NCBI GenBank assembly: GCA_041389145.1
Contig: JAWKSK010000003.1
Coordinates: forward strand, 128-64,127
DNA: 64,000 nucleotides
Direction of reading: 5' to 3'
DNA from: Patescibacteria group bacterium
Lineage (GTDB): Bacteria; Patescibacteriota; Kazan-3B-28
A program made the position numbers and the translations under genes. Of the stretch, positions 3,657 through 60,686 are shown in pieces (the stretch's first letter is position 1; each line of letters starts with the position of its first letter). A model generated the notes under the pieces. It ran no database searches, was not told the origin of the DNA, and saw only the letters and a list, made by a program, of their open reading frames with translations.

Positions 3657-4504
3657 ATGAAACTGACTCCCTTCCTGCTTTTGGTTACCTTCGGGTTAGG
3701 TATTTATCTAGGATTTGGCTCTGAATCAGATCAGATTAGACATCAGTCATTCTTTAGTACTAAGGAGTTTTTTGATGAGGCATATTCTGCAGCTGATGCC
3801 ACCCCTTCCAAGGAGGGGGTGAAGATGATTTTGGTCAATCACCACCTGTTGGCTAAGGAGTTGATTGCAGAGGGCATTTAATACTGTCTCGAATCCACCG
3901 AAGACTGTGGTCTTAATCTCACCAAATCATTTTGGGGTGGGACAGTTCGATACACTAACATCTGAAGTTAATTGGGATCTCCCTATGGAGTGCTTAGGGC
4001 AAATCAACGGGTAATACACTTGCTTGAGAATAGCGGATCAGTTCAGGTAGATCCCGTTCCATTTAATTATGAGCATGGGGTGTCTGGAATCGTGCCGTTT
4101 GTTAAGCACAGCTTTCCCAGGGCTAATATTGTTCCCATCATTATCAAGGAAAAGATGAAGCCCGATGAAGCTGAGAAGTTATTGTCAGTACTTAGCGAGG
4201 TAATTCTGATAACAGCTTAATAATATGGTCCGTGGATATGTCTCACTATATGGACGAGGCGACTTCGCTTGCGAAAGATAATATTACGATAGCTGCATTG
4301 GAGAATAATGATGCAGATGAACTACTTAACGCCGAAGTAGATTCCCCTATTGGGCTAAATATGGCTGCAAGATGGGCGGAGATAATGAATTTGAATTTTA
4401 ATTTGCTGGCCAGAAGTAGTGCAGCAATTATTACTGGTAACAATGAAGCTGGTGATAATACAAGCTACATTACAGGCTACTGGTCTGTGAAATCTGATGA
4501 TTAG
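3657..4504 (+). pseudogene. MEMO1/AmmeMemoRadiSam-B family protein, frame-disrupted (at least 3 frameshifts)
   Basis: Family-like sequence is spread over frames: ILVNHHLLA, PKTVVLISPNHFGVGQFDTLTSEVNWDLP (shifted frame), YGVLRANQ...EHGVSGIVPFVKH, LIIWSVDMSHYMDEA. Shifts near 3880 and 3985 sit at short T runs. Confidence 0.6.
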
Positions 4505-4534
4505 GGTTATACTAGGGGTAAGATTATTAAACAG

Positions 4535-6245
4535 ATGAATATGGAACAAGAACCAAAGGAACAGATGGATCCCAGTTCAGAACCAAAGTCAGAGATGGCT
4601 GAGAGAGAAGATGGACTCCAAACTAGAGAGTCGTCCAGGCTGGAATGGCATCTTAAGAACTGCAATGTGGGTTGCAGTTGGGGTGGTAGTGCTAGGTGGT
4701 GGAATCTACTTAGGTGCTAACTGGTCTGGAATGCCAGCAAACCAAAATGGTGACGAACAACAGATGGATGACAATTCCATGAATGTTGAATTTGTATCAC
4801 CAGTAAAGGTAAGGGTGACTATATTGTGTACAAAGGTAGTAGCGATGAGAACTTCTCTGGTGCTCCTTCCTATTACAAGTTCGCTGAGATTTCTGGTGGT
4901 GAGTGGGATGGTTATGAGTTGGTGATTGCAAGAGCTAAGCCAGCTGGACCTGCTTTCTATGACAACTACTACCGGTTCGTGAAGTTGGACCAGATATGGC
5001 ATGGCCCTACTTATCTAGACAGTCTGATAGTTTTGATGACCAGATGCTTAACTGAGATGACTCTACTACTCGATTTAACCAGTTATCTAGCCCTTCAAGA
5101 CTTGAGAACCCCAAATAACGCAGATCAAGGATTAGTTGAAGTAGACTACTCTGACCATTCCTGGTTTGCAGATATGACTGGGTTAAAAGCTCAATTCGAA
5201 GATGATACCTGGGGAACTGTATATGTTGATTCAACTACCCGTGCAATTCCACCAGCTGTAAATAACAGCAATCCTCGTGGAGGGTTTTATATTCAAATGC
5301 CAGACGGTACAGCACGTACCTACCGCATTAGAGGTTCCTTTCTTAAGCCAAGACGGTAGAGCAAGTATCACCTGGATGAAGGAGGTTCAAATACTGCCCG
5401 CTATCGAATGACAGATGTTGGTGGATGTGGTGCAGTAAACGTTGCTTCTGTGATGCCTGCCAGTCTAAAGAGCAGTTTGGTAAAGTCAGGAACTGCTAGA
5501 TATGGAAGCAACACAGAAACGGTTTATGAATTGAATTCCATCAATCATCCATTAATGGCTGCTACCTTCTCTGATTATCAGGTTTGGAACGATGATAATA
5601 TAACCATCAATCAGTTTGCGGCTAATCACCCACTTTTCTTCTGGGAAGATATGTTTGGCAGAATCATTAAGTTTACTAACGACCTATACATACCAGGTGC
5701 AGAATGTGGTAAACCAGTAATCTATCTTTACCCTGAAACCAAGACTCAGGTGCAGTAGAGGGTGCTTAATTGGTGGATTTTCCTACACCGATCCAGAGTA
5801 CGGCACTGGCTATGAAATGGCAGATCCATCTGGTTCGCTGTTAACCTTGCAGATGGAAAGACTTACCCTCTTGTTCTGGGAAGGACGTGGTGTAGCATCT
5901 ATGAATCACCTGATAAGGGTTGGGTTGTATCTCAAGCACAAGTAGAAGCAACGATAGATGATAAGCTGGGACAGTATGGCTTGAATGAAACTGAGATTTC
6001 CGACTTCAAGGAGTACTGGATTCAAGAATGCAGGATGCTCCATATTACTTCATCAGCTTCTATGGAACTCAAGTGATGGACCAGCTGGCTCCATTAAAGA
6101 TCACCCCTAAACCAGACACAGTGATTTAAATTACTGATGGACTTTAAGCCACTTCCAGAGACCAATTGGGTGAACGACCCCACAAGATCACTTCCCTACC
6201 TCGTGAAGGATTTACCGTTATCGAATGGGGTGGCGTAATCAAGTA
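4535..6245 (+). pseudogene. Membrane-anchored secreted protein of unknown function, heavily frame-disrupted
   Basis: TM anchor AMWVAVGVVVLGGGIYLG, then coherent peptide stretches in alternating frames (GAECGKPVIYLYPETKTQV, LFWEGRG, PDKGWVVSQAQVEATIDDKLGQYGLNETEISDFKEYW, PYYFISFYGTQVMDQLAPLKITPKPDTVI). Ends IEWGGVIK-TAA just before a terminator. Confidence 0.5.
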
Positions 6246-6271
6246 AAAAGGAAAGCAACTTCTTAGTTTTA

Positions 6272-6299
6272 AAGACCCAACAGAAGTTGGAGTCTTTTT
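6272..6299 (+). terminator. Intrinsic terminator
   Basis: AAGACCCAAC-agaa-GTTGGAGTCTT hairpin followed by TTTTT. Confidence 0.6.
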
Positions 6300-6304
6300 A
6301 TTGC

Positions 6305-6381
6305 TGGAGCCGATGAGAGGATTTGAACCTCCGGCACTCTCCCTTACGAAGGGATTGCTCTACCAGCTGAGCTACATCGGC
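6305..6381 (-). tRNA. tRNA-Thr(CGT), CCA encoded
   Basis: GCCGATG/CATCGGC acceptor, D-arm GCTC-AGCTGGTA-GAGC, anticodon loop TTCGTAA, T-loop TTCAAAT, 3' TCCA. Confidence 0.9.
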
Positions 6382-6443
6382 TAGATTGCTCGTGTAATAT
6401 ACCTGATTACTAATCTGTTATGCATACAGATTAGTTTAGGGAA

Positions 6444-6889
6444 TCAAACGGTGTAAAGCAAGTACGTAGCAAAACACCCAGCAAAATATGGGACCAAGAG
6501 CAAGGCAGATACAGGGTGGCGGCCTTTAAGTAGGTAGATGAGTACAATTGTGGTGAAGTTGAGGAAGAATATCTCTACCAGAGCAGCATCGATATTTTGA
6601 AGACCGAAGAATAAGTAATTCCAATAGAAGTTAAGAGCTCCATTAACCAGGAACAGCCAAAGGATGGCAATCCGATTGGTTTGGTTTTGAGATTTATGCA
6701 GGAATCTAAGAATCGAAATTGCTAGTAATACATAGATGACAGTCCAGACAATTCCAATAATATTGCCCGGAGAGAGTGAAGGTCGGAAGATTGAGCGTGT
6801 AATACCAATCAAGGTTGGGGGTAGTTGCCACCCGCTCCCCGAAAGCAATTGAGAGCAATATAACGAAGTGGAACAATGTATTTAAGCAT
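6444..6889 (-). pseudogene. tspO: TspO/MBR family tryptophan-rich membrane protein, N-terminal part frameshifted
   Basis: GNIIGIVWTVIYVLLAI and NGALNFYWNYLFFGLQN are TspO-like. The preceding segment TTPNLDWYYTLNLPTF lies in another frame upstream of nt 6848. Confidence 0.6.
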
Positions 6890-7003
6890 TGGTTTTTAAT
6901 TAAATGATGACGACGATACCATTTGAGAACTTCAAGGGTGAGGATAATACCACCTGCTAAGACCTGGGCTAATTGGAGGCATAAGAACCAGAGCCAGATA
7001 TTA

Positions 7004-9729
7004 TTAATCAGGTATAGCTAAAACTACCGATTCCAAGTGGGCCAAACCATTCACCAGAGGCTGGGGTGTATGTTCAGTCCCACCTGGTTCTAAGGCGTAT
7101 GCATAGGTTGCATATGGTGTTGAGGTAGCTGTTCCTTCTGTATAGTAATCGCTTGAGATAACAGGTCTGAGTGGTTCTGAGTATATATTGTCATCTAGTG
7201 GTGGGTTAGTTGGATCATTGGCAAGGTCATTGTTGGGAAGGTTTCCAATACGAGGAATGGATACCACTTCAGCATTATTGAGCTGGACCAACCGATCTGT
7301 TGTCACAAGAGGTTGAGCTGTTGGAATAACGTGGCCAGTTGCGAGATCGTAGATGAAGAGACGATTAGTGGAGTCAGCAACAAGTATCTGATTACCGGGA
7401 AGAGTGAACAATGGGTCACCAGTGAATTGTGGGTTTTCTACTGTTCCAATGGATTGCAATTGGAGACTTTGAAGATTAACTAGCTCTAGATTATCTTTAC
7501 CGACTAGCAGTAGATTGCCATCAACTAATGGCATCAATGAATCTATTTGAGTTATGAGAGTAGAGCTGAGTTCTTGTTCCAGTTTTTGGGTTTTGTAGTT
7601 ATAGATTTTAAGCTGGTTACCGTAGCTAATAACTATCCGATGATTGCTGGCGCCTTGAACAATCAGCTTTCCGGCTCCGGAAGTAAATCCATCCAGGTTA
7701 CTGTTGCCGGCGTTGATAAATTTTACAGATTGGTTATTTACGTCATAAACCTTAAGTCCGGCTTGAGAATTTGCGTTTAGCGTAACACCACTACTGATAC
7801 CACCGAATGGTGTATTTACTGTCCGACTTGAGAATTGATAGTTAACAAATATAATTTTATTATCAACTACCGCATAGTATCCCCCACCACTTAAGTCTGC
7901 ACCTTGCTTGCGTGTGAGTTTTTTTGATTTTGCATTGAAAATATATACTTCACCATTCCCAAAGAAATGGATGTTTCCGAAATTATCACGGATACCATTC
8001 TTAAAGTCTGGTAGTTGATTGGCAGCAAGTAGTTTGCTGGTGATAATTCTAGTCGAACCTGATTTTGGATTGTACACCTGACCTAGTACTGATTGGTTGC
8101 GATCAGGGTGAATGATCAACACCTCGTTACCACGAAGTGGGTAGACTGCTTGAGCAATGAGCTCACCTTGATTGGCAGCAACGGTGATATGGTTTTTACC
8201 TGTTTCCCAGGTACTGTCCTGATTTGAGTTTAGTGGTGATGATGAGCTAGTGAGCTGACTCTTTGCTTGGTTCTGATCTGCTGTATTGCGATCTGATGGG
8301 GTGTAAACAGTCCATGGAGCTAGTGAGTTTGCTAGTAGCACTTCCCCATTTGATAACTGGATTGGCTGAACTTGAGGTGCCAGGGATTTGAGTTCGTCTA
8401 TATCTTGGTTACTTCCATAGTTATTGGTGTAATCATATTCAGCGGAGATATCTGTTTCTGAATTCATCCAGGAAAAGGTACTAGGTTCAATTAATCCAAA
8501 TGGCCAAGGTATATGAGAAGATGTAGCACCTGTTAGAAGAATGGTTCCGTCTGCTAGTGGCACCGTTTGGAAAGTTGGAGATGTATTGTCTTCAAGTCTT
8601 ATAATAGGTTTTCCGTCATCACCAGCGCGAGGAATGCCGTTGATTTGTTCAAATTTGATATTTTTCTGGGCAACCGGCAGCTGTCCCATTTCTCGAGTAA
8701 AGAGTTGATTGGTCTTTTGGTTGTAGATACCAATTATTGAGTCTGGAGTTAAGACATGGTCATATTGCATCCAAACTAGGTTTGAATCCCCAATCGTGTA
8801 CATAGAAACTGGTTTACCGATCTTACGCATAAACGTAGTACTGGATTTTTGATGATTAAGTAAGTAGAGGTTTCCGTCGGTTGAGATTAGAGACTGTCTA
8901 TCATCTAATTGAAGAGTAATACCTTGTGATGAGGATGGTTCGTATGAACGTGGTAGTTCGATATCATTTAGCTGAGAGATGGTTTGTGAATCTGGATTGA
9001 GTTGATAGACCACAGAGTGAATAGTTCTTCTAGCAAACACATCCTCACCAACTGTATCGGTTTGATAGGTGCCAATTAAAACTTTGTCTTTGGTTTGTAC
9101 TAGGTATGGGTGCTTGCTGATGTGGGTATTTGAATTCGTAAATGAAACTGACTGTGAAGAATTGTTTTCGAGATTGTAGATTATTAAATCTAAACTTGGA
9201 TAGCGAGTATCATCACCTGATTCGATATAGTTGTTGGCACCCGCTACTAACAGCTTGTTGTCATCTAACAATAAGGCGGTGCTGTGATATGGGTTGGTAA
9301 TCTTAATTTCATCCATCAGAGATATCTGATGTGACTTTATATCAAAGGTTGCGAGGTGGTTGGTTTGGGGTTTAACGAATGTTCCGGAACCAGGTAGTTC
9401 TTGGAAGGTGTTGATGTACATCAATATATTTCCGTTACTGAGTGGGAAGTATTGGATGCGATCATAGCTCACTCCATATTCATCATCGCCTGGCTGCAAA
9501 CCCTGTCGGTTGTGCGTCCAACTGGTAATACACTGGTATCGACTAACTCAAAGTTGCCGTAGTTGGCTACGCTGTATTCTGGTTTCGGAGTTGGCTCCTC
9601 TTGCATCTGGAAGTAGTTAAACAGATACCAACCAAGGGCAAGTAAAAGAAGGATTAGCAATGTAATCCATATCCAGGATTTAGATTTGCGTTTTTGTGGC
9701 TGAGCAGGTGCCGGAGAAGGGTTAGGCAT
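7004..9729 (-). CDS. Large membrane-anchored repeat (beta-propeller-like) surface protein; one frameshift near 9505-9515 splits the N-terminal anchor from the 831-aa body
   Basis: The 86-aa ORF (9469..9729) has TM SWIWITLLILLLLALGWYLF and runs into the 831-aa ORF in the -1 frame at the sequence GACAGGGTTTGCAG. The body has repetitive strand-rich segments and no enzymatic motif. Confidence 0.6.
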
Positions 9730-10117: not shown

Positions 10118-10705
10118 ATGCCTAAACGCCAACTAGAAGAATTTGAACCAGAGTTTGCCTCACAGCGTGATGGTGAATATGTAATAGATATTGTGTGGGC
10201 TCATTGGTATGCGTTACTAATTCGTGTAATGGGGTCTTTGGGTATCATTCTGGCATCCTTCTTAATTCCTGCCCTACTTGGGATTATGCCCTACATATTT
10301 ATGTATGGAATTACCACTGCAATCTACTATCTATGGATGGTATTTTGGGTATTCCAGATTGTTCAGTCCTACGTCATCTGGCTGAAGGATAAATGTATTA
10401 TTACCAACGAACGTATTATTAAAGTGGACCAGAAGAATGTAGTGGATCATAAGGTTACTACAGTAGAGTTGGAAAGAATTCAGGCTGTGGTTTATGCAAT
10501 GAAGGGTCCGGCTGCTAATACCTTTAAATTTGGAACTGTAAGTATCTACTTCCCAGGGGGAAATAACATTGAGATCAAATATGCAGCCAACCCATCTATC
10601 TTGCAGGAAGAGATATCAAGGATGGTTAAAAAGAACCAGAAGGGATTAGATAAACAAACAACAGACGACATAGAAGATTTTTTGGATGATGAAGGTGAAA
10701 AGTAG
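10118..10705 (+). CDS. Membrane protein with a bacterial PH (bPH_2/YdbT-like) domain and an acidic tail
   Basis: Two TM helices followed by ITNERIIKVDQKNVVDHKVTTVELERIQAVVYAMKG...FGTVSIYF, the bPH_2 pattern. Confidence 0.6.
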   Translation: MPKRQLEEFEPEFASQRDGEYVIDIVWAHWYALLIRVMGSLGIILASFLIPALLGIMPYIFMYGITTAIYYLWMVFWVFQIVQSYVIWLKDKCIITNERIIKVDQKNVVDHKVTTVELERIQAVVYAMKGPAANTFKFGTVSIYFPGGNNIEIKYAANPSILQEEISRMVKKNQKGLDKQTTDDIEDFLDDEGEK

Positions 10706-11237
10706 GTTTAGTTACTTCCTAGGGGTCTCTATATTACTGTTAGTGTTCGCGATCGGGTATCAACTACTATCACACGTAGATAGTCCAAACATCTCTCCCC
10801 TGTTAGAGAGTGTGGCTGGGTTTAGCACCGATAGACAACAGTTAGGATCAGAGGGTGGTTTCCATTACTTACGTAAAGGGAATATTACAAACCTCAACAG
10901 TAGTCAGCGCCTAGAATTAGTGACCGAACTCAATCGCCCTAGTGTAATTGAGGATCAAATCATTACCCCTCAAACCACCGCCCAGTTAGTGAGTCGAAAC
11001 GGTAAAACCTTTATTGAGGTGTTAATGGTGGGTACAACGACCATATATAGCGAAGAAGGTCCAGCAGAAAGCATATATTCTGGTGTTAGGGGCAAGGTGG
11101 AAGGAGATGGACCAATATCTAGAGGTAAATATCTGACAGGAATGAAAGTAACCCAACCAATTCAGGTATTTGTGCCTTCTGAGAATACAAAATTTAAGCT
11201 TACACCGACCCAGAAGGCTCTGGTGTTATATGGTTAG
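10686..11237 (+). CDS. Hypothetical secreted or anchored protein
   Basis: 183 aa with N-terminal signal anchor FSYFLGVSILLLVFAIGYQLL. Overlaps the upstream gene by 20 nt. Confidence 0.45.
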   Translation: MMKVKSRFSYFLGVSILLLVFAIGYQLLSHVDSPNISPLLESVAGFSTDRQQLGSEGGFHYLRKGNITNLNSSQRLELVTELNRPSVIEDQIITPQTTAQLVSRNGKTFIEVLMVGTTTIYSEEGPAESIYSGVRGKVEGDGPISRGKYLTGMKVTQPIQVFVPSENTKFKLTPTQKALVLYG

Positions 11238-11296
11238 ATATACTACTATAATCTGAACAAATTGGGTCGTAGGACCTGATTTATCTAATTTATCTC

Positions 11297-11367
11297 TGAG
11301 GTGTAGCTCAGTTGGTTAGAGCGTCCGCCTGTCACGCGGAAGGTCGCGGGTTCAGTCAATCACTCCA
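11297..11367 (+). tRNA. tRNA-Asp(GTC)-like gene with a defective T-arm and acceptor 3' strand (probable pseudo-tRNA)
   Basis: Normal 5' two-thirds: D-arm GCTC-AGTTGGTTA-GAGC and anticodon arm TCCGC-CTGTCAC-GCGGA. After GCGGGTTCAGTC there is no complementary CCCGC or CACCTCA. Confidence 0.55.
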
Positions 11368-11374
11368 TAAGTCT

Positions 11375-11400
11375 AAAAGCACCGAATTCCCGGTGCTTTT
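11375..11400. terminator. Hairpin terminator, potentially bidirectional
   Basis: AAAAGCACCG-aattcc-CGGTGCTTTT. Confidence 0.6.
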
Positions 11401-11940
11401 ATAATTGATCTAGCTGGTTTTGATACTTCTTCGTTGTGTCTCCAATCTGGGTGTAATAGTCGATCAGTTCACGTAGTAGATCTGAGCTATTGGTGTTGAA
11501 GTGATCCCCTGTTTTAGAAGGTCTGGGATTTTTTTGAGCTGATTGTCATCGGCTGGCCAATTTTAGTGCAAAGAGACTAAGTTGATGTAGGCAGTGGTGT
11601 ACTTGGGATTTATAGAAATTGCGGTTTGATAGTTGGTTTCAGCATCTTCGTAGAGCTGGGTTTTTGTATGCATTACCAGGTTGTTGAATGCAGCAACCGA
11701 TGCCCTTATCTCTGGGTAGCAATTTCATAGTATTTAAAGCAGAAGTTTGATAGTCTTGGGTTCTAAAAGTATAAAACACCTAACTGATAGGCGGCTTCAA
11801 AGTCATTTGCAGGTCTTGGGTGAGACGGTGGTGTAGTTGGTAATTTGGGCACTGGTAAATAGTGAATCTTTAACAAAATAGCCAGTTACAAGAATTGCAA
11901 CCAGCGATAGCAGAAAGAGGATAAGACCAGTCTTGCGCAT
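11399..11940 (-). pseudogene. TM-anchored TPR-repeat protein, frame-disrupted
   Basis: Start MRKTGLILFLLSLVAILVTGYF. TPR-like stretch YPEIRASVAAFNNLVMHTKTQLYEDAETNYQTAISINPKYTTAYINL. Tail LLRELIDYYTQIGDTTKKYQNQLDQL-TAA. The pieces lie in three frames. Confidence 0.55.
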
Positions 11941-11944
11941 TCGT

Positions 11945-12485
11945 GCGAGGACGGATGATCTCTTACCGCTAATTGGTAAATCTAATACATGATCGGCGGT
12001 GAGAATTCCAAATAAAAGCTGGCACCGAAAGTGGTGTTAGACTGACCGAGCGAATTTGCATGAACCCAGGCTGACTAGTTCTCTGGCAAGGGTAATTTCT
12101 TCATCTAAAAGTAACGGTCTGATGGATTGCCTTCAAATCGAATACCCAGTTGGCAACAACCTCGTCTTCTTGGGGAGGTAAGTGGAACCAGTCCGTTAAA
12201 TTTACGAATCTTTTTTGGAGGCTCCCGCCTTCTGGGTAGAAACTAGCCCAGAAATTGAGATATCTTCTTCCGTGGTATTGGTTAAGTGTAGGTATCGAGT
12301 AGTTGTGAGTTGGATTCTGAATGATAGTGATAAAGTGTTATCTAATCCAACATCAAGCCCCACGAGCTGGCTTTAGTATTGCTTGTTGGCCCAGAAAGGG
12401 TCAAACTAGTACCGATAACTACTACTAGGGCCCAAGCAGCAACTTGGGCAAAGCAGACAGGTGCAGGATAGTTCCTGGTTTTCAT
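11945..12485 (-). pseudogene. Hypothetical exported protein, frame-disrupted
   Basis: MKTRNYPAPVCFAQVAAWALVVVIGTS start, then coherent peptides in shifting frames. No family recognised and the end coordinate is approximate. Confidence 0.35.
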
Positions 12486-12518
12486 TACTATTAATATAGC
12501 ACAGCTAAGAGATATAAG

Positions 12519-13860
12519 ATGAGATTTTCAACCCGAAGGATAAAATTCTTAACTTTTATTTTAGACCTCATCGGACTAACAACGGGGTTAGCCTTGGCTT
12601 TGTATTTGAGATATCCCGAGACCTTTGGGCCATCGTTGTTTTCAACTTTACGCTGGTGCATTTGCAGTGCATGTGCAAAATTGGCTGGTGATTATGTATA
12701 TCAAATCTGTATGGTAAAAGTTTTCTTAAATAGGTGGTTGTGTAGTGAAGCTAGCACAGGCGTTAAGCCTAGGTATCGTATTAGGAGGAGTTATTGTCTT
12801 CTATCTATTACCCTAACAATGACCTAACTCCAAAGCGACTATTGCTACTTGATGGAGCGCTTGGATTTGGATTGATTGTTGGTCTAAGAGGCTTTACTGA
12901 TCTCATTGATTGGTAAGTATTTTCAACGGACAACATCCTATTACTAGGAAATGGTCCAATGCTATCAGCGATTGTTAATGAAACTGAAATAGACCTTTTA
13001 GAATAGTTGGCGTGATTTCTGATCATCAAAATGAGATAGCTAAGATTGATGGAATCAAACTGTTTGGGGACTGGAACAGGCTGCTGAATCGTGGAGAAGA
13101 ATCGAGTAAAAATAAGATTGTATTATTAAATGATTTAAAAAAGCCAATGGGATGACCGAGCTTCTTTATCCCCCTGTCCAAGGTTGAGTTCTTATCTAAG
13201 AGGATTTTTATGGGAAACATTTCATAAAATTCAGTTAGTGAAATCCCGATGCAACGTGGATGCTTACCAACTTAAAAAAATTGTGGGTTTTGAGGATGGG
13301 TTAAAACGAATTGCAGATATTCTGTTAGGTCTTATTTTGTTAGCGATTACCATTGTGACCTTCCCGGTGGTAGCAATCTTAGTGTGGACGACCAAGGGGC
13401 CATTGATCTTCACCCAAAGAAGAGTGGGGTTAAATGGTAAACCGTTTGTAATGGTGAAATACCGCACTATGTATGGAGATGTGGATGACAAGAAGGTTAG
13501 TGGCTAACCAATGAGAATGATCCCAAAATTACTTGGGCAGGAAAGTTTCTGAGAAAGTCTCGGCTAAATGAATTGCCTCAAGCTTGGAATATCAAGGTGA
13601 GATGAGTTTCTAAGTGGGCCACCGGCCTAGGCGTCAGGTTTGTAAAGATGCTGGAAAAGAGATTCCTTTTATAACGACAGACATCTAACAAAACCCAGGC
13701 CTCACTGGTTGGGCACAAATTCATTGGAGCATGTTGCTAGCGTAAAGAGTCATTAGAACTGCAGTACGATTTGTACTATGTTAAGCACCGTAACCTATTT
13801 ATGGATCTTGGGATTATCTTAAAGACGGTCGCCAATATCCTAGGCCTAAAGGGTCGGTAA
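12519..13860 (+). pseudogene. Polyprenyl-phosphate glycosyl-1-phosphate transferase (WbaP / bacterial sugar transferase family), frame-disrupted
   Basis: ADILLGLILLAITIVTFPVVAILVWTTKGPLIFTQRRVGLNGKPFVMVKYRTM, then NDPKITWAGKFLRKSRLNELPQ, LTGWAQI and YDLYYVKHRNLFMDLGIILKTVANILGLKGR in other frames. Confidence 0.7.
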
Positions 13861-14780: not shown

Positions 14781-14781
14781 G

Positions 14782-15490: not shown

Positions 15491-15523
15491 CATTTGTTGA
15501 TATATGGTAGTTACTGCTACAAA

Positions 15524-16994: not shown

Positions 16995-16999
16995 TTACG

Positions 17000-20954: not shown

Positions 20955-20987
20955 ATATTCTGTACTGGTTATGAGTATAATAAATTT

Positions 20988-25366: not shown

Positions 25367-25512
25367 GGTAAGAGTTGGTATTCCAGAATTTTACGACAGT
25401 GGGCCCCGAGTTGTCTCGAGGCCCATAGGTCAGATTTGAGCTATCTGAGAGCTGTTACAAGTCTAGAGAAACTAGACGCTCATTCCGAAGGAAGAGAGTG
25501 GGAAGTTCTTGA

Positions 25513-52900: not shown

Positions 52901-54941
52901 TAACACCTTCACCAATAGTAAAGTCATCTGATCTATCCCATCTACCAGTTTGATTTACTGCACATGATTCTGGATTAATGTAATCATTGCCTGTAAGTTC
53001 TTTGGTTTGAATACAAATTCCAATATTTGCCTCATTGGTTAGAGCTTGAGGAGTCAACCAACTGTAGGAACTATCAATTGGTTGATTCTGTTTGATAAGT
53101 TTCCAGTTGAGACCTGGACTTTTCCACCACAATGAAACAAAGTCAAAATCTGATTGATAGTTCCAGCTTATGGTGGTTCGGTTTCCGCCGGGAATTTGGT
53201 CACCGAGTTGAGGAGAGGTGATTTCGACTGAATGATTTTGGATAGCGACTGGATCCGAGACATCGCTTACAACAGAACAATCTGGTTGATATTTACCTTG
53301 ATCATCAAAATAGTGGCCTAAACAAACCCGAATTTGGATATCAGTATTGTTCTGAATTTCAGAAGGAATAGTAAAATCGAAACTTCCATCATTGGTTACA
53401 GATGAGAAATACAGATTCCAATTGGTGGATGAGGTTGGTTTCCACCAAATAGAAGCGTAAGGTTCTGTAGAGTTTGTATCCCAGGTAATTGGGTATGTAC
53501 CCAATCGATACCAGGTGGTATCGGCGACTGGTGAAGTAATAATTAACCCGGTATCAACGATCTCAAATACATCACTTTCATCGGAATAGAATGAATTCCC
53601 ACCATCATTACAGGTAGCAACTGTATTACTACTGCCCATACAGAATCTAAACTTTGCTGCACCAAGCGGATAGCCAATTGGAACGTCAACTTGAAAAGTT
53701 TTAGTACTAGAACTAATTATTGAAAGTGGGAACTCCAATAACTGCCAGTCCTCAGCTTGTCCTGCCTTAGCTTCTGAAATCCAAATTGAACTCCAGGTAT
53801 TATTAGTGATATTTCTGGCGGTTACGGTGACCTGTGCTTTATAGCCTCGAGCAATTTGGTCGCCATTAGTTGGTGATATGATTTGTAGTTTAGTTTCGTC
53901 AATGCCTTGGATGGTAATACCTTGAACACCACCAGCGCCATCGTTTGAGCCTCGTCCGATTGGATCAGAAGTTGTATTGTCACCGTTTCCATCATTGCCA
54001 CCAACGGTCGTACCTCCTCCTGTACCAGTTCCGCCAATGACCGGCTTCTGACTGCTACCGATGCCACCATTTTCCTGTGTATGGTTCAAGAAAAGACCAG
54101 TGCTACCAATAACTGTCTTGTCCTTTACGTTATTCCAGAGAGCAAAATCACCTGAAATATCAATCATGTCAGTGTTGTAGGTTTGAGCGACATCTTCGTT
54201 GATTGGCGGGAATGGGTTGCCGTATACACCTCCAACCACGTGAATGTTTTCACCATCAACAACTACTTCTGGATAGAAGTTAACACCAGACAGAAGTGCA
54301 AATACCTCCCAGCCACTGCCTGGATTGTTCAGATTAAGACGTTCGATAGTGGAGTAGAGGAGAGCGCTCTGATTTTGGTTTTCGACCACCTTAGGGACGT
54401 TAATGTCACCGGACACTACGTAGAGGTACTCACCAACCTGAACGAATCCAAACTCTGCATGACCAAAGTTAGTGGAACCCCAAGCTGTTGCTTCACCTTC
54501 CCAGCTATCTCCAATCACGTTTCCTTTGGAGTCGATTTCTATTCTTCTGACTTTATCTAAAATTGTTTGCTGGTAGCGGTTTTCTGTAACGTTAAAAAGC
54601 AGGTCGATACCACCTGCAACGTATAGCCAGCGCTTTCCCCCCTGATTTACAGATACCATTTTGGAATGAGCTGCTTTTTCTGCACCGTCACGTTCAAGGG
54701 TAGACCAGATTTTCTCAAGATCTGGATCTGGGGCGACACTAGCGCGGCTACCAGATGGGGGATTGAGCAAAGAACCAATCTCGGTAGCAAACAATACGGC
54801 TGCAAATACAGCAATAATAGCCCCTAAACCGATAAGATTCCGTCGCAGGTATCTGCGATCGGCTATTTGGCTAATTATCTGCTCCAGGAAAGTCATTAGT
54901 TTTTTTGATTTGCTTATATTATTGTAGCAAATAATCCTCAA
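46953..54941 (-). CDS. Giant (about 2650 aa) N-terminally anchored multi-domain surface protein (adhesin-like)
   Basis: Uninterrupted 7989-nt ORF with a probable ATG at 54896. TM LIGLGAIIAVFAAVLFA and a beta-propeller-like N-region. Four tandem modules begin I(I/T)SP... with conserved W (e.g. LIITSPVADTTWYRLGTYPITWDT). Also an Asp-box-like SSNGGTSW, many Big_1-like Ig modules (e.g. ADGVDQATLTVTLKDYLGTPIAGYHVKIESN) and a dockerin-like end DFTNDGLVNSTDFTYW. Confidence 0.8.
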   Translation of the reverse strand: MRIICYNNISKSKKLMTFLEQIISQIADRRYLRRNLIGLGAIIAVFAAVLFATEIGSLLNPPSGSRASVAPDPDLEKIWSTLERDGAEKAAHSKMVSVNQGGKRWLYVAGGIDLLFNVTENRYQQTILDKVRRIEIDSKGNVIGDSWEGEATAWGSTNFGHAEFGFVQVGEYLYVVSGDINVPKVVENQNQSALLYSTIERLNLNNPGSGWEVFALLSGVNFYPEVVVDGENIHVVGGVYGNPFPPINEDVAQTYNTDMIDISGDFALWNNVKDKTVIGSTGLFLNHTQENGGIGSSQKPVIGGTGTGGGTTVGGNDGNGDNTTSDPIGRGSNDGAGGVQGITIQGIDETKLQIISPTNGDQIARGYKAQVTVTARNITNNTWSSIWISEAKAGQAEDWQLLEFPLSIISSSTKTFQVDVPIGYPLGAAKFRFCMGSSNTVATCNDGGNSFYSDESDVFEIVDTGLIITSPVADTTWYRLGTYPITWDTNSTEPYASIWWKPTSSTNWNLYFSSVTNDGSFDFTIPSEIQNNTDIQIRVCLGHYFDDQGKYQPDCSVVSDVSDPVAIQNHSVEITSPQLGDQIPGGNRTTISWNYQSDFDFVSLWWKSPGLNWKLIKQNQPIDSSYSWLTPQALTNEANIGICIQTKELTGNDYINPESCAVNQTGRWDRSDDFTIGEGVNFAITSPNGGEYWSAGTTHTIAWETNSNNDLKLEYSSNGGTSWVPLPGAGTGIVSKGSTSFLWAIPEDLTPTSQARIRLSDLGGSGRNDVSDENFFIVGGPISSTKLTEALLSARFVTTVGEHFIINTSNVGASTASELGSDYIGQLSPSWTPGTVAKLGHLRFMITSDGEVVPVPQGRYGHKVIKNFAGGKLAVIGGATWLKEVEVVTNGSAERFKTFWVIDDGVHPVHTTGSNLRFKFGANQTVANFSYRFVGNISYAWNESNNRWSGTNGNQATGNYSGSLLDDRWALKDEAGNQNRGKAFFALADMLSSPAVVGGLENAGNYTTATGNNVTYFRLPVAVTAQSQNFRSSEWFQDTDYINSLNADSEPGDQNIYTAAYNLQGYSLGDKAVFYGGQQEFQNPLPQSLDHDPHVPDYTFNFGPKTFMYKPTTDDFEERWFAMSDLGIAGVDNSFAYVKVTPGIQTLSAGSQTIFTAHPYNSNGVRLTGATCSWSLTGGAFGIISNLEVNPNNSVTATANPNLDLYRKVGRGIKADCNLDGKTISGFADIAVYPSGTPKPDAVLSRAEANTNSAIVVPGAKRVFRATPYDQYYTNFSQAVEYEWTLNYSNIGSIGSQSNSQLEFTATKDKQFAGSYPDAITVRITYLDPNLGEVTYADSIDIIIPESLFADGSSSESFAADYMVVSGTSNPILSIFHYGGVESNRLQNLGLFGSGDITGNLEVVTSPISPEGVFGSDVIVTIKNGLDEPVFQDSNGNRYAVKLTTSRSTSPLVTTDYSFNEGKTERVERVGEVYDTPQFPDEANEYVYFDVNGQARFRIYSNSPTESPMDVIGSAISEAGYSFFVPGLTDQVEVRDVPGVPSQLQSSLTTDKYKVAADGVDQATLTVTLKDYLGTPIAGYHVKIESNREGADIIAPTSATTNSAGEATFTIKSSVKGLATLRAFYAPTAAELSSNPSPLLQTLTIEFAAYIKSLTPNQILQGETIDLVEAIGGQTNWEQGNSHVSLISPSRTGLALSVDNPHIKADSVSKTPIQISAPQYPNRQINLSIVTGSGSFSPPGTTSVNTNAQGEATFTFRSGATPGIVKLRAEVTGTTVADELWFMLEDSSDHPYEIYVASSPASDLAPGESAVVRGAVYEIIGTDRVLVDDTLTFNFTSNLGSFNPGSKASSNGYAQSVFNRSQTAGPAQIIVTTEIFGVKLGGKIILNQTDDTSDLNFGNVTIEDSLKLTVANLTASPTAVIGNWIFRVTTEISPDGTPDNEKEYEVVDYPLEVLSNGSITGPRLTQVNPSFGYRNTNDLVIHITGEDAFFQPTSVVTFTYVDGNGTGITVADSVNRISPDELEVTIDIANTASMGYWNVTVTTGNRVANLPGNFDFLVTTPSNIVVNIIPSPNRIPRDGIAKSNITAFVGRLDEITGQISPLPNVEVRFGFMGGDNGTLDPLVDDPDNPESKGRKTNADGIATTVYTTDAGDESDEVLIVGTVIIDGVPVANTGLIVKEVDTGHTFTLIGNPDSLSATGGSSALTATVVDREGNPVASGTPVEFILTGVGTVSPSKTTVNGGQGIATSTYNVGPQDLPQFPLIVAKATIAGIGVVYSNDLYIPIGVDASKYRVNVVASPTSVEAGSSQRSNITATVTYIGSGVPTPVPNWPVFFTAAYTQSGDFLTVLSGTTNSNGEITTQFAPGFYTGNVLITAKPVALQPVSVPVSKTIGQTISQELSTISAVPKYVPADGEAFSVIRVTVRNTNNIGIPNRQVTLTSSLGTISPLPTLTTNALGQASFFLRSNSVGIANLVANVDGITLETQAFFEPVGSLIAINLDTVVPLEAKAYDRLVSLFLREPNGTAQPVIDESYFTNGDDYVLDLPTIYLKPNVNYTYWAKGRYHLARTKPVVATTPGTVPVNFTGTHKGQQKGLLIGDIAPDILNSLPTLWRDNAINTVDVSKIIQAWFKNSYEADFTNDGLVNSTDFTYWTINYGSGEPRP

Positions 54942-57709: not shown

Positions 57710-58523
57710 GGAAAATATTTATTCCAATTAATATAGCACCCAGAATGATGCGATAGATTGCGAATGGAATAAGACTATGTGTCTTTAAGAAATCGAGCAT
57801 GAACTTAATTGCAATGTATCCAGAAATAAATGCAGTAGTAAATGCGATCACTAAAACAGTGATATCCATATTGGCTGGGGGAGAGGAGATGACTTGCAAT
57901 AAAGAATAACCACCTGCCATAAGAATAGTTGGAGCACCGATGAGAAATGAGAACTTTGCTGCCTGATCTCTTTTTAATCCCTGATAGATACCGGCCGAGA
58001 TGGTGGCTCCAGAACGTGAGACACCGGGAATTACAGCTGCAGCTTGAGCGATACCAACACTAATAGTGTCCCATATAGTTACCTTGCTGAGATTGCGTTT
58101 TGGTTTAGCAATCTTTTCGATCACGATAAACAAAATACCAACTGCAATTAAGGCAGAGGCGACATAGACGGTCTCGCGAGCGATGCCTTCTGCGATGTCC
58201 TTCATTAATAATGCTCCGAGAATCGCTGGAATGGTGGCAATAAGAATGTATTTAAATAGGAGCTGATGTTCAAAGCTGGCTTTAGTTTTAGATTTAGAAA
58301 CAAGAGCTAAATAAAACTCTTTCCAGTCAGACCAAAAGTAAATGATCACCGCGAAGAGGGTAGCGAAGTGCATGACCATATCAAATTCCAAACCCTGGTC
58401 CGGCCAACCTAGAAGATCGCGACCAATTACTAAATGCCCAGTTGAACTAATGGGCAGGAATTCGGTAAGACCTTGAATCAAACCAAGAATGGCTGCCTGA
58501 ATGTATGATGCGTACATTTCCAT
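57684..58523 (-). CDS. uppP: Undecaprenyl-diphosphate phosphatase
   Basis: GLTEFLPISSTGHL, PGVSRSGATI and FSFLIGAPTI. Confidence 0.9.
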   Translation of the reverse strand: MEMYASYIQAAILGLIQGLTEFLPISSTGHLVIGRDLLGWPDQGLEFDMVMHFATLFAVIIYFWSDWKEFYLALVSKSKTKASFEHQLLFKYILIATIPAILGALLMKDIAEGIARETVYVASALIAVGILFIVIEKIAKPKRNLSKVTIWDTISVGIAQAAAVIPGVSRSGATISAGIYQGLKRDQAAKFSFLIGAPTILMAGGYSLLQVISSPPANMDITVLVIAFTTAFISGYIAIKFMLDFLKTHSLIPFAIYRIILGAILIGINIFHVRLPWLS

Positions 58524-60686
58524 TAGGGAACTACTACATTAATTTTCCATGTAACTACCGGTCCGAACCATGTCACAAACTCTGAAACGAGCCTAAATGA
58601 CTCTTGGTAACTACCGACCTTTTGCGGTGCAGTTATCGTGAAGGTGAGCATGAACTCATTACCTGGGAGAATAGTTAGGAAGGTGTTTGAGACCCGATTA
58701 GAACTTTCCCAACTTGGATTGTAGATTAAGCTAGTACGATCATTGGGGCCAGTAGTACCAAGTTTTACCTGACCATGGTTGAGTTGTCTCCAGTTGCGGC
58801 GACCAACTTGCCGATCCAGTGTTTTTGAATCTGACTGAGACAGTCTTGCTCTCACCGGGTGAGGGTGAGGTCGTCAGACTGACTGACCAACGATGCTCCA
58901 TATGCATTTGGTGACAAAAAATAACAAGTCTGAATCTCCACTGCCAGTAACATTGATTTCCCAATAGATACCCAAGTCATTAAACCAACTTACGTATTCT
59001 GATACAGGACGGAAGTATTCTTTAAACGTTCCTGCAACGTCAGGAGTTTTTACTTTGAATTCAAATCTAAAGTACTTCACCTGATCTAACATAGTTAGAG
59101 CACATCAAACTCATACGGTTGGAAACCCAACCAACTACTGTCTTGAAAATACTTGTTCTGTCTAAATTTTGATCGGTTCCTAATTTAACGTTAGCGGTTG
59201 TTTGGTTTGCCAATGATGTCCCAAGCAACATTACTCTTGCAGTTACATCTACCCAGAGGTTTGGTGGTTTGACCAGGAGCTAAAACAAGGTATGGGCTTT
59301 GTTTAACCCAAGTCATGTTGCAGTTAGTAGTTCTTGGTTGCTGGAAGGTGAGCGAGAAGGTTATTGGTAAATGCTCCAGTGCTCTCTACAACTGCTTTTA
59401 CCCCTCGGAACCATTGAACCAACCTGGAAGGTAACTCTTCCAGTGTTGTCTGTATTACCAACTCCATAGCTGTTTACGAGACGTCGATTGATTAAATTAC
59501 CTTCACCATTAAGTCTGATGGTTACTGGAATATTGGGTTGTGCAACACCACTGCTATCAGCAACTGCGAATCTGCACCAGACTCATCAATCACCTGCAAC
59601 GATTGGTTTTTGACGCGCTAATTACTGCAGACTGTGAAAGCTTTGGTAGCTGAACTAATGCCAATGCATTTGAACCCATAACCAAAGTCGGTGGACGGAC
59701 TGGCTGAGCCGAGGAGTGTTGGTAGTAGTTAGTTTAGCCTCAAGTTGGGGAAGAAATAGATTACTGAGTTATGATGTTAACGAAGATACTGGTGACAATG
59801 GCAGTAAGTAAAGGACGAGCCCGCTCCTTGAGAGTAACCACCATCCAAGTCGGGTACTGCGATTTCTTCACCAGGTGCGGGTGAGGTCTAAACCAACACC
59901 GTAGTTGGTAAAGTAAGACTTTTTCAGAGTCTGACTCAGAGAACCTACGCTTATTACTGAAGAATATGCAGCGGGGAGACCTATCTGAACCAGCATTTCC
60001 TGCTGCGTACAAATAACGGCTACATTATTATTAATAGCGTAATTTATGGCAACCTTAAGATTTGCATCTGGGTATGCAGCACCAAAACTCATATTGATAA
60101 TGCGAGCACCATTATCTACTGCATAGTAGATTGATTTAACTACGTCGCCGTACTCACCACCGCCTGCGTTGTTAAGGCCTTTTACAGGCATAATGATTGC
60201 TTGTTGATTTACTCCAGCAATTCCTTGTCCGTTATTAGAATTAGCAGCGATGAGGCTTGCAATTCCAGTGCCATGACCATGATAGTCTTTAACGTCTGAG
60301 TTCTTTTCAGCAAAGTTATATCCATGATAGTCATCGATATACCCGTTACCATCGTCATCCTTGTTGTTGTTAGGAATCTCGTTGTTGTTGGTCCAGATTC
60401 TGCCAGCAAACTCTGGATGGGTAAGTTCTATTCCAGTATCAATAACCGCAACGATGATATTGCTTCCGGTGGTATAGTCCCAAGCCTGAGGAATCTGCAT
60501 GGTATTTAAATACCATTGCTGATGGAAGTAGGGGTCGCTGGCAATTTGAGTGACCTGGAAATCAGATTGGGTTCTAGAGATTGTGCCTGCGACGCTGAAG
60601 TCGGAGGGGTTGGAACTGGCCTGGACGTGACCGATAGAAGTAGTCACTAAGTACAGGGCCAAGATTAATTTTGAGATTGACCGCAT
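58523..60686 (-). pseudogene. Secreted subtilisin-like S8 peptidase with C-terminal tandem Ig-like (NBR1/FW-type) repeats; frameshifted from about 60010 downstream
   Basis: Signal peptide, then VAVIDTGIELTHPEF (Asp) and HGHGTGIASLIAA (His). AAGNAGS and GSSFTAAIVTS (Ser) are recovered only in other frames. Repeats such as FKNTGSASW...FEFKVKTPDVAGTFKEYFRPVSEYVSWFNDLGIYWEINV and FTITAPQKVGSYQESFRLVSEFVTWFGPVVTWKINV are spread over three frames. Confidence 0.6.

What the first reader, a model, noticed from the sequence alone, without database searches (positions are those of the whole stretch)
3657..60010. Frameshifts are concentrated in discrete blocks whose edges fall inside genes
Frameshift-dense blocks lie at about 3.66-6.9 kb, 11.35-19.32 kb, 24.24-26.70 kb, 28.99-29.23 kb and 58.52-60.01 kb. 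Within them, coherent protein text jumps frame every 100-300 nt. Other stretches, including the 8-kb giant gene, show none. Block boundaries cut through single genes. The capsule gene has a broken N-terminus and an intact C-terminus, the S8 peptidase shows the opposite pattern, and the 1240-aa surface protein is intact only in its middle. The tRNA-Asp is damaged only in its 3' third. The shifts I reconstructed (3880, 3985, 9510) sit at short homopolymers. Genuine gene decay should follow gene boundaries, so uneven consensus quality or strain mixing at hypervariable envelope loci is at least as likely. If the shifts are real, they indicate recent loss of envelope polysaccharide and surface genes.
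Basis: partly seen in the sequence, partly recalled or inferred. Interest (0 to 1): 0.55.

Follow-up and report, generated by a model that had tools for sequence, protein, structure and literature searches.

The report
Assembly-error blocks, not gene decay
Five stretches of this Patescibacteria metagenome contig are full of small insertions and deletions that break genes, but short-read assemblies of the same strain carry those genes intact, so the breaks are uncorrected sequencing or assembly errors and not gene loss.

Summary
About 195 frameshifting indels lie in five blocks: 3,872-7,072; 11,121-19,195; 24,134-26,694; 28,820-29,106; 58,778-60,007. Together these are 24% of the window. One further deletion lies at 9,511. 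The remaining ~48 kb, including the 8-kb gene, has none that I could detect. Every block edge falls inside a gene. The tRNA-Asp and tRNA-Thr genes and the intergenic DNA inside the blocks are hit too.

The indels are artefacts. The window comes from an NCBI MAG (locus tags R3B38_, 68-kb contig). Independent short-read contigs of the same strain are 99.9-100% identical to the clean flanks. Within the blocks they lack every indel and encode intact proteins. After frame correction, the window's proteins are 80-93% identical to intact orthologues in related strains. At most two in-frame stops appear in about 3,900 codons. Substitutions in most block genes keep their third-codon-position bias.

The blocks have 1.3-3.5% indels, mostly 1 nt, about 60% of them deletions. 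They are only weakly tied to homopolymers, and some random substitutions occur as well. This fits uncorrected long-read-type sequence at strain-variable envelope loci, where short-read assemblies break. There is no evidence for loss of envelope genes. Interest is low, except as a quality warning for the public record.

The parts
3872..7072 (.). Error block 1. It has 42 indel events and about 60 window-specific substitutions. It covers Memo, the 570-aa gene, tRNA-Thr, TspO and the C-terminus of the 949-aa gene.
   Evidence: DNA alignment to the same-strain contigs L094/L093 and to relative L006. Pfam Memo fragments are colinear in three frames.
3657..4504 (+). Memo-like gene, 282 aa and intact in the relatives. 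The window copy has 3 frameshifts (3872, 3978, 4205).
4535..6246 (+). Gene for a 570-aa protein, intact in L006, L093 and L094. The window copy has 21 indel events and 47 substitutions spread almost evenly over the three codon positions (13/13/21).
6305..6381 (-). tRNA-Thr(CGU) inside block 1. It carries one extra A at 6336 relative to the same-strain contig.
6431..6889 (-). TspO/MBR gene, 151 aa and intact in the relatives. It is frameshifted in the window.
6882..9729 (-). Gene for a 949-aa protein, intact in L006, L093 and L094. In the window the C-terminus is broken (6893, 7011, 7071), 7,072-9,510 is clean, and a single 1-nt deletion at 9,511 splits off the N-terminus.
11121..19195 (.). Error block 2. 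It has at least 89 frameshifts at the protein level and about 3.2-3.5% indels at the DNA level. It spans the polysaccharide-synthesis cluster.
10686..11251 (+). Gene of 186-187 aa in the relatives. The window ORF (183 aa) stays open only by chance. It has four compensating shifts at 11,121-11,152 and a deletion at 11,202 that rewrites the C-terminus.
11297..11368 (+). tRNA-Asp(GUC), damaged at bases 1-3 and from 11,353 onward. It is intact in relative L008.
   Evidence: Rfam 36.6 bits, not called by ARAGORN. Alignment. ARAGORN finds an intact tRNA-Asp in L008.
11402..12527 (-). Two genes, a 190-aa TPR protein and a 205-aa protein, both intact in L008. The window copies have 9 and 11 frameshifts.
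12519..13857 (+). Bacterial sugar transferase, 452 aa and intact in L008. The window copy has 26 frameshifts and no stops, and is 93% identical in amino acids after correction.
15601..16913 (+). Frameshifted gene that aligns to the 479-aa protein of relative L008 (31.5% identity) with about 14 frameshifts. The identification as a Wzx-type flippase is my own reading of the peptide text.
   Evidence: low identity, so an approximate count. No Pfam hit.
18786..20017 (+). Capsule_synth gene, 413 aa and intact in L088. The window copy has 13 frameshifts at 18,801-19,195 and is clean from 19,196. GenBank holds only a 230-aa fragment (MEZ4210378.1).
24134..26694 (.). Error block 3, with 37 frameshifts at the protein level. 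It runs from the first ~35 codons of the O-antigen ligase gene, through two TPR genes, into the C-terminal third of the surface-protein gene.
25475..29229 (-). Surface-protein gene, 1,249 aa and intact in L090 (P0321). The window copy is clean only across 26,695-28,819. GenBank holds a 699-aa fragment (MEZ4210385.1).
28820..29106 (.). Error block 4, with 5 frameshifts in the N-terminal part of the surface-protein gene.
58778..60007 (.). Error block 5, with 22 frameshifts (16 of the +1 type) in the C-terminal two thirds of the S8 peptidase gene.
58532..60686 (-). S8 peptidase gene, 728 aa and intact in L003. The window copy is 80.3% identical after correction: 82.7% in the clean N-terminus and 79.1% in the block.
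19196..24133 (.). Clean control stretch between blocks 2 and 3.
   Evidence: 0 differences from L092 over 19,196-21,027. 0 gaps in 2,814 nt against L088 at 93% identity. 0 substitutions against L090 over 23,594-24,093.
46953..54941 (-). Clean control: an uninterrupted ORF of 2,662 codons.

Best explanation
The frameshift-dense blocks are artefacts of how this MAG contig was built. They are stretches of error-prone sequence that were never corrected, set between accurately assembled stretches.

The error profile has 1.3-3.5% small indels, mostly 1 nt, and about 60% of them are deletions. They are not confined to homopolymers. A few percent of random, transition-biased substitutions occur as well. 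This looks like a long-read consensus built from very low coverage, or a near-raw long read. It does not look like a polished consensus.

The blocks sit at strain-variable envelope and surface loci: a polysaccharide cluster, a surface protein and a secreted S8 peptidase. Short-read assemblies of the same community fragment at these loci. The most likely mechanism is one of two. Either long reads bridged gaps in a short-read graph, or short-read polishing failed where reads from mixed strains did not map. This mechanism is inferred, because I do not know which platform or pipeline was used.

What is shown: the organism's real genes at these places are intact.
For: (1) Same-strain controls.
- L092 (ERZ27309058 k141_367024) is identical to the window at all 1,832 positions of 19,196-21,027. 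In the last 110 nt of block 2 it differs at 13 alignment columns (1-, 2- and 4-nt deletions and a few substitutions in the window). At those positions it agrees with the 93% relatives L088 and L089, which encode an intact 413-aa capsule protein.
- L093 and L094 carry the exact 195-aa protein of 10,118-10,705. L093 shows 6 substitutions and 1 indel across 7,073-11,087. It shows 40 indels and ~63 substitutions across 4,126-7,072, and 22 indels and ~46 substitutions across 11,088-11,777. L093 and L094 come from different samples but agree with each other at every window-specific site. Both encode intact genes of 570, 151, 949 and 187 aa.
- The Logan contig L091 is 100% identical over 60,142-61,904.

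(2) After frame correction the proteins are conserved.
- Sugar transferase: 93% identity with 26 shifts.
- Capsule protein: 93.1% identity with 13 shifts.
- S8 peptidase: 80.3% identity with 22 shifts, and the block part (79.1%) is about as conserved as the clean part (82.7%).
- The surface protein aligns over its full length.
- At most two in-frame stops (11,565 and 59,763) appear in about 3,900 block codons.

(3) Substitutions between the window and relatives keep their third-position bias in most block genes: 0.69 for the sugar transferase, 0.68 for TPR190 and 0.71 for Memo. Clean genes give 0.64-0.85.

(4) The errors ignore feature boundaries. They hit tRNA-Asp, tRNA-Thr, intergenic DNA and parts of genes.

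(5) Block edges are sharp. For example, there are 15 indel events in the ~500 nt before 19,195 (BLAST counts 17 gap openings in that HSP) and none in the next 4.5 kb.

(6) Short-read contigs of relatives and of the same strain end at or near block edges (19,086; 11,240; 11,777; 60,142). Alternative alleles coexist at these loci.

(7) Published work: indel errors in long-read assemblies shift reading frames and shorten gene calls, and some survive short-read polishing (PMC6487183; PMC8812927 and PMC12007338, abstracts).
Against: - No reads, depth or assembly method are available, so the platform and the exact step that failed are inferred.
- The same-strain contigs come from other assemblies, and I do not know whether any shares the MAG's sample.
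- Error density differs between blocks (about 1.3% indels in block 1, about 3.5% in block 2). The insertion/deletion balance differs too: block 5 is insertion-rich and block 2 deletion-rich. One uniform process does not predict this.
- In block 3 the corrected C-terminus of the surface protein is only 71% identical to the relative, against 95% in the clean middle. Part of that could be real allelic divergence rather than error.
- In the 570-aa gene the substitutions are spread almost evenly over codon positions. That fits random error, but taken alone it would also fit relaxed selection.
Confidence: 0.95

Rival explanations
1. The blocks are genuine pseudogenes. On this reading the lineage recently inactivated its envelope polysaccharide, surface-protein and peptidase genes, and the indels are real mutations.
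For: The affected genes are mostly envelope or surface functions, which are dispensable in some lifestyles. The 570-aa gene shows substitutions spread evenly over codon positions.
Against: - About 195 indels and several hundred block-specific substitutions (3.5-10% divergence from the same-strain contigs) coexist with 0-0.1% divergence in the flanking 1.8-4 kb, synonymous sites included. Real mutations accumulate genome-wide, so this pattern cannot arise by descent.
- The indel-to-substitution ratio is about 0.4-0.6 inside blocks. It is 0 indels per 123 substitutions in three clean genes. The bacterial mutational expectation is about 0.1 (my own knowledge of mutation-accumulation studies).
- There is no large-deletion bias.
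- At most 2 nonsense codons are seen, where roughly 80-100 would be expected.
- Block edges cut genes and tRNAs. An apparently essential tRNA-Asp(GUC) is broken in the window but intact in the relative.
Confidence: 0.02
2. This is also an artefact, but with a different cause. The consensus was built from a mixture of co-occurring strains with divergent alleles at these loci. That gave a chimeric sequence with spurious indels, rather than low-coverage or unpolished long-read sequence from one strain.
For: - Divergent alleles coexist. Two 1,949-bp contigs in one assembly are 93% alike.
- L090 is 0% diverged in the flank but 7-15% diverged inside the surface-protein locus, with third-position bias.
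- Gene content differs between relatives.
- In the TPR gene of block 2, the substitutions against the same-strain contig are third-position biased (6/3/19). This suggests a different allele there.
Against: - Real alleles differ mostly by in-frame changes, so mixing them should give substitution mosaics rather than 1-3.5% one-base indels.
- Block 1 covers ordinary genes (Memo, TspO, tRNA-Thr) that are only 4% diverged between relatives. Its window-specific substitutions look random.
- This may well act together with the main explanation rather than replace it.
Confidence: 0.2
3. The frameshifts are phase-variable contingency loci or programmed recoding. On this reading they are biologically used, through slipped-strand switching, ribosomal frameshifting or transcript editing.
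For: Surface and envelope genes are typical targets of phase variation. A few shifts lie in runs of 3-6 bases.
Against: - There are 10-40 shifts per gene, in both directions.
- Most are outside runs of 3 or more bases.
- tRNAs and intergenic DNA are affected too.
- The same strain has uninterrupted genes in other assemblies.
Confidence: 0.005

Closest known systems
Residual indel errors in long-read or hybrid (meta)genome assemblies that create false pseudogenes
   Same: One- and two-base indels fragment ORFs. The corrected translation matches intact homologues. Errors persist where short reads cannot be placed (PMC6487183; PMC8812927 and PMC12007338, abstracts).
   Different: Here the errors are not spread thinly. 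They lie in five sharply bounded blocks with 1,300-3,500 indels per 100 kb. That is well above the 474 per 100 kb reported for unpolished long-read assemblies in PMC6487183. The rest of the contig is essentially error-free. This points to unpolished or near-raw inserts in an otherwise polished contig.
Pseudogene-rich genomes undergoing reductive evolution, such as Mycobacterium leprae, Sodalis and Rickettsia (my own knowledge)
   Same: Many genes are interrupted by frameshifts.
   Different: Real decay follows gene units. It also brings nonsense codons, larger deletions and relaxed substitution patterns, and it is shared by independent assemblies of the lineage. None of this holds here.
Hypervariable 'metagenomic islands', meaning O-antigen, capsule and surface-protein loci that differ between co-occurring strains (my own knowledge; the concept also appears in PMC6487183)
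   Same: Blocks 2-5 lie in a polysaccharide cluster, a surface protein and a secreted peptidase. Allelic and gene-content variation between relatives is seen at these loci.
   Different: Strain variability explains where the assembly failed. It does not explain the frameshifts. Block 1 is not an obvious island.
Phase-variable contingency loci (my own knowledge)
   Same: Frameshifts occur in surface-related genes.
   Different: No long repeat tract is present, there are dozens of shifts per gene, and non-coding RNA genes are affected.

Membership tests
Assembly/consensus error tract | An independent assembly of the same strain lacks the indels | tested here: met
   L092 is identical to the window over 19,196-21,027 but indel-free at 19,086-19,195. 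L093 and L094 are 99.9% identical in clean DNA and lack all 42 events of block 1 and the first 22 events of block 2.
Assembly/consensus error tract | Errors ignore the boundaries of genes, RNA genes and intergenic DNA | tested here: met
   All ten block edges lie inside genes. tRNA-Asp and tRNA-Thr carry errors. Intergenic indels occur at 6,125-6,300 and 11,289-11,389.
Assembly/consensus error tract | Frame-corrected translation is as conserved as in intact orthologues, with almost no nonsense codons | tested here: met
   Identity after correction is 93%, 93.1% and 80.3%. There are at most 2 in-frame stops in about 3,900 codons. One exception: the surface-protein C-terminus is 71% identical against 95% in the clean part.
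Assembly/consensus error tract | Low depth or poor read support for the consensus inside the blocks | not testable with these tools
   No reads are available. Run SRR28338162 probably holds this population, since its Logan contig is 100% identical.
Homopolymer-type (nanopore consensus or 454-like) error | Indels concentrated in homopolymer runs | tested here: not met
   22% of 1-nt deletions fall in runs of 3 or more, against 15% expected. 59% of insertions extend a run, against 43% expected (n=27 and n=17). Run-length spectra are equal in blocks and clean DNA.
Genuine pseudogenes (reductive decay) | Lesions are shared by independent assemblies of the lineage, and divergence in the flanks matches | tested here: not met
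   Flanks are 0-0.1% diverged and blocks 3.5-10%.
Genuine pseudogenes (reductive decay) | Relaxed selection: loss of third-position bias and accumulation of nonsense codons | tested here: not met
   Third-position share is 0.57-0.73 in block genes, against 0.64-0.85 in clean genes. At most 2 stops are seen. The 570-aa gene is the exception, with 13/13/21 against the same-strain contig. At 0.1% flank divergence those substitutions must be errors.
Genuine pseudogenes (reductive decay) | Decay follows gene units | tested here: not met
   Seven genes are part broken and part perfect.
Phase-variable contingency locus | One long homopolymer or short tandem repeat at the switch site | tested here: not met
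   There are dozens of shifts per gene. Several feasible intervals contain no run of 3 or more, and 12 of 27 deletions are of single, non-repeated bases.
tRNA-targeted genomic island (considered for block 2 because it starts at tRNA-Asp) | Direct repeat of the tRNA 3' end at the far end of the island | tested here: not met
   No match to the expected tRNA-Asp 3' end with up to 3 mismatches anywhere in the window. Block 2 in fact starts upstream of the tRNA, at 11,121.

The most novel reading that the evidence does not exclude
The most novel reading still open is that the indels are real in the particular population this MAG was built from. That would mean a sub-lineage acquired about 195 small indels confined to five loci within a time too short to change its flanks. 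A localised, indel-prone mutational process at envelope loci would be needed. My evidence does not strictly exclude this, because I could not inspect the MAG's own reads. A milder, likelier by-product is that the blocks mark real strain-variable islands in a compost Patescibacterium.
Probability: 0.02. Interest if true: 0.5.

Novelty: not a real feature. Interest (0 to 1): 0.06.

Why it matters
As biology it does not matter. The organism's capsule, glycan, surface-protein and S8 peptidase genes are intact.

It matters as quality control. About a quarter of this public contig is error-dense. Truncated products have entered the protein databases as ordinary proteins. MEZ4210378.1 is 230 aa of a 413-aa protein, and MEZ4210385.1 is 699 aa of a 1,249-aa protein. 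Some ORFs that look intact hide out-of-frame stretches. Taken at face value, the record would suggest that a Patescibacterium has lost envelope functions.

The case also shows a test that needs no reads. Block-wise frameshift density can be compared against exact-strain short-read contigs found through 90%-identity protein clusters.

Tried and rejected
- A codon-usage Viterbi frame tracker was too weak to place shifts. I replaced it with a frameshift-aware protein-DNA aligner.
- Exact-protein look-ups of two window ORFs failed. Both ORFs later proved to contain hidden errors. The look-up of P0121, the GenBank fragment of the capsule gene, also failed.
- The genome-contig scan gave only a 37% relative with no synteny.
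- The first metagenome scan found nothing.
- A 2,642-aa concatenation of block-2 fragments returned no hits and wasted one homology search. Noisy concatenated queries defeat the word prefilter.
- The PDB search for the Memo fragments found nothing.
- Distant capsule homologues (29-35% identity) could not resolve the N-terminus. A local HMM gave only a marginal colinear hit. The close relatives L088, L089 and L092 settled it.
- Idea: block 2 is a degraded island integrated at tRNA-Asp. I rejected this because there is no tRNA 3' repeat and the block begins upstream of the tRNA.
- Idea: homopolymer-driven errors. Not supported.
- Global DNA alignment to L002 at 85% identity produced many paired insertion/deletion artefacts and forced alignments. 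I did not use it for counts. For the same reason, the DNA-level counts against L008 and L090 (87-88% identity) are upper estimates. The counts I rely on come from the protein-level alignments and from the 93-100% identical contigs.
- A literature search for the locus-tag prefix and sample accessions showed only that JGI Ga0079224 is a compost metagenome.


Full report
WHAT THE WINDOW IS

The gene content is typical of Patescibacteria (CPR). It includes RNase Y, MnmA, TsaE/TsaB, RuvB, UppP, sigma factors paired with DUF5667 proteins, a 2,662-aa giant ORF and a lamin-tail-domain protein.

A homology search with the intact part of the capsule gene returned a 100% identical 230-aa GenBank protein. 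This is MEZ4210378.1, 'MAG: hypothetical protein R3B38_01565 [Patescibacteria group bacterium]', on a 68,009-bp contig. Ten other window ORFs are exact GenBank proteins of the same contig. So the window is part of a public MAG.

CHECKING THE OBSERVATION

A map of the longest stop-free ORF covering each position reproduces the ORF-poor blocks.

To show that the blocks are frameshifted coding sequence and not junk, I wrote a frameshift-aware protein-to-DNA aligner. A 728-aa S8 peptidase homologue aligns end to end with 60,686-58,535. It shows 18 frame changes, all between 60,007 and 58,775, and no in-frame stop.

A 1,273-aa homologue of the surface protein aligns end to end with 29,223-25,487. 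There are 2 shifts near the N-terminus, none across 2.3 kb, and then 15 in the last 1.1 kb.

Pfam places successive fragments, each in a different frame, on successive parts of the Memo model (54-91, 89-164, 169-214). The same holds for the Bac_transf model (1-64, 69-97, 150-178). PDB PglC shows the same colinearity.

Rfam finds a tRNA-Asp(GUC) at 11,297-11,368 that ARAGORN does not call.

FINDING CLOSE RELATIVES

The window's species was absent from the genome collection. However, the 90%-identity protein clusters of intact window proteins contained members from other assemblies. Fetching their contigs gave the following.
- L006/L008: JGI compost metagenome Ga0079224, 18.2 kb, 88-95% DNA identity, covering 620-13,864.
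- L003-L005: 77-78% identity, covering 52-62.7 kb.
- L088 and L089: 93% identity, covering 18.7-23.7 kb.
- L090: covers 23.6-29.3 kb.
- Three contigs of essentially the same strain. L092 covers 19,086-21,027. L093 and L094 cover 3.86-11.78 kb and carry the exact 195-aa protein of the window. L091 is a Logan contig of SRR28338162, 100% identical over 60,142-61,904.

In every relative the genes that are broken in the window are single intact ORFs. These are Memo (282 aa), a 570-aa protein, TspO (151 aa), a 949-aa protein, a 186/187-aa protein, TPR (190 aa), a 205-aa protein, sugar transferase (452 aa), capsule protein (413 aa), two TPR proteins, the surface protein (1,249 aa) and the S8 peptidase (728 aa). 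L008 also has an intact tRNA-Asp.

REFINED ANATOMY

Against the same-strain contigs, block 1 runs from 3,872 to 7,072 with 42 indel events. The next 4.0 kb has a single 1-nt deletion at 9,511, which splits the 949-aa gene into the 86-aa and 831-aa ORFs. Block 2 starts at 11,121, inside the ORF that looks like an intact 183-aa gene.

Block 2 ends at 19,195. L092, L089 and L088 all show deletions in the window at 19,160, 19,178 and 19,195, and nothing after that.

Block 3 starts with two compensating shifts at 24,138 and 24,169, inside the O-antigen ligase ORF, and ends at about 26,694. Block 4 is 28,820-29,106. Block 5 is 58,778-60,007.

Frameshifts by gene:

| Gene | Frameshifts |
|---|---|
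| 183-aa ORF | 4 |
| TPR190 | 9 |
| 205-aa gene | 11 |
| Sugar transferase | 26 |
| L008 479-aa protein homologue | about 14 |
| L8_370 homologue | about 12 |
| Capsule gene | 13 |
| O-antigen ligase | 2 |
| TPR161 | 5 |
| TPR180 | 13 |
| Surface protein | 22 |
| S8 peptidase | 22 |

Together with the 42 events of block 1, this gives about 195 in total, all within 15.5 kb (24% of the window).

The clean DNA really is clean. There are 0 gaps in 2,814 nt against L088 at 93% identity, 0 differences in 1,832 nt against L092, and the 2,662-codon ORF is uninterrupted.

WHY THE INDELS ARE NOT REAL MUTATIONS

First, time. The same-strain contigs differ from the window by 0-0.1% outside the blocks. Inside, they differ by 3.5% in block 1 and about 10% at the start of block 2, counting indels and substitutions together. 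Mutations accumulate everywhere, so a lineage cannot acquire hundreds of changes in five patches and none in the neighbouring synonymous sites.

Second, agreement between contigs. L093 and L094 come from different samples. They agree with each other and with the more distant L006 at every site where the window deviates. The window is therefore the odd one out.

Third, conservation. Once frames are corrected, the encoded proteins are as conserved as intact genes.
- Sugar transferase is 93% identical, capsule protein 93.1% and S8 peptidase 80.3%. For S8, the block part is 79.1% and the clean part 82.7%.
- Compared with distant homologues, the block parts are no more diverged than those homologues are from one another.
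- At most two in-frame stops occur in about 3,900 block codons. Neutral decay with this many indels would be expected to give on the order of 80-100. That estimate is my inference, from an indel-to-substitution ratio of roughly 0.1 in bacterial mutation-accumulation studies (own knowledge).

Fourth, substitution pattern. Differences from relatives keep their third-position bias inside blocks (0.57-0.73, against 0.64-0.85 in clean genes).

Fifth, the lesions ignore biology.
- They cut seven genes part-way.
- They damage tRNA-Asp at both ends of its acceptor stem and in the T-arm.
- They add a base to tRNA-Thr.
- They occur in intergenic DNA.

ERROR SIGNATURE AND LIKELY CAUSE

Against the same-strain contigs, most events are 1 nt (L093: 43 of 63). 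Deletions outnumber insertions by roughly 60:40 overall, but block 5 is insertion-rich.

The link to homopolymers is weak and not significant.

Window-specific substitutions are transition-biased, 59 to 46. In the 570-aa gene they are spread over the codon positions as 13/13/21, which is what random errors would give.

Indel densities of 1,300-3,500 per 100 kb exceed the 474 per 100 kb reported for unpolished long-read assemblies (PMC6487183). The blocks therefore look like near-raw or very-low-coverage long-read sequence embedded in an otherwise accurate contig.

Their positions coincide with strain-variable loci.
- Two alleles 93% alike sit in equal-length contigs of one assembly.
- A GT9 gene is missing in L088.
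- Beyond the sugar transferase, the polysaccharide cluster is not alignable at the DNA level between the window and L008.
- L090 is 0% diverged at 23,594-24,093 but 7-15% diverged inside the surface-protein locus.
- Short-read contigs end at or near the block edges.

From this I infer one of two causes. Either long-read bridging of gaps in a short-read graph, or short-read polishing that failed where mixed-strain reads did not map. A consensus built from mixed strains may also contribute. The pipeline and platform are unknown to me, so this step is inference and not demonstration.

VERDICT

The alternative, recent loss of envelope genes, is not. Nothing here is a biological feature. The value lies in flagging the record and the truncated proteins derived from it.

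Noticed in passing
window 36,580-38,250: A 1.7-kb stretch has no credible ORF on either strand; its density of stop-free-path breaks equals that of shuffled sequence. It holds 4-5 copies of a GTTGCAACGTTGTTGTAG-like motif and 6 terminator-like hairpins (1.5 expected). The homologous 1.8 kb in relative L002 also has no called gene. No Rfam family matches. It could hold non-coding RNA genes or a regulatory or replication region.
   Followed up: partly
window ~63,570-63,620: An EamA/DMT transporter is split between two reading frames (ORFs 63,566-63,997 and 63,258-63,561; Pfam EamA positions 33-129 and 68-134). No relative covered the region, so I could not confirm it.
   Followed up: partly
window 9,511: An isolated 1-nt deletion lies in otherwise clean DNA, with a few window-specific substitutions at 9,242-9,764. 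It splits a 949-aa gene, intact in three relatives, into 86-aa and 831-aa ORFs.
   Followed up: yes
window 60,888-62,483: A PolyA_pol/CCA-enzyme-like ORF (234 aa) and the next ORF (290 aa) lie in the same frame, separated by TAG and six codons. This looks like a nonsense mutation, but relative L003 also has two genes (248 and 292 aa), so the split is genuine.
   Followed up: yes
window 10,686-11,237; 22,002-24,239; 26,678-28,777: Three ORFs that look intact, and that GenBank annotates as proteins, contain compensating frameshifts or are fragments of longer genes. Hidden out-of-frame stretches lie at 11,121-11,152 and 24,138-24,169. MEZ4210385.1 is 699 aa of a 1,249-aa protein.
   Followed up: yes
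L092 vs L089 (ERZ27309058 k141_367024 / k141_367070); L088: Two contigs of equal length (1,949 bp) in one megahit assembly carry 93%-identical alleles of the capsule/GT9 locus, a strain bubble. L088 lacks the GT9 gene at 19,938-20,954. This shows real strain variation at the envelope locus.
   Followed up: partly
L091 (Logan SRR28338162_1770285) vs window 60,142-61,904: The contig is 100% identical over 1,763 nt. That SRA run probably contains the MAG's own population and would be the place to look for read support.
   Followed up: no
L002 2,392-3,669 vs window 39,482-41,032: The M16 peptidase is one 516-aa ORF in the window but is called as two genes (116 and 307 aa) in the JGI relative. The relative has its own break or error there.
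   Followed up: no
window 3,464-3,610: A weak 6S RNA match (32.5 bits, gathering threshold 46.4, E=0.008) lies just upstream of block 1. It is probably chance.
   Followed up: no
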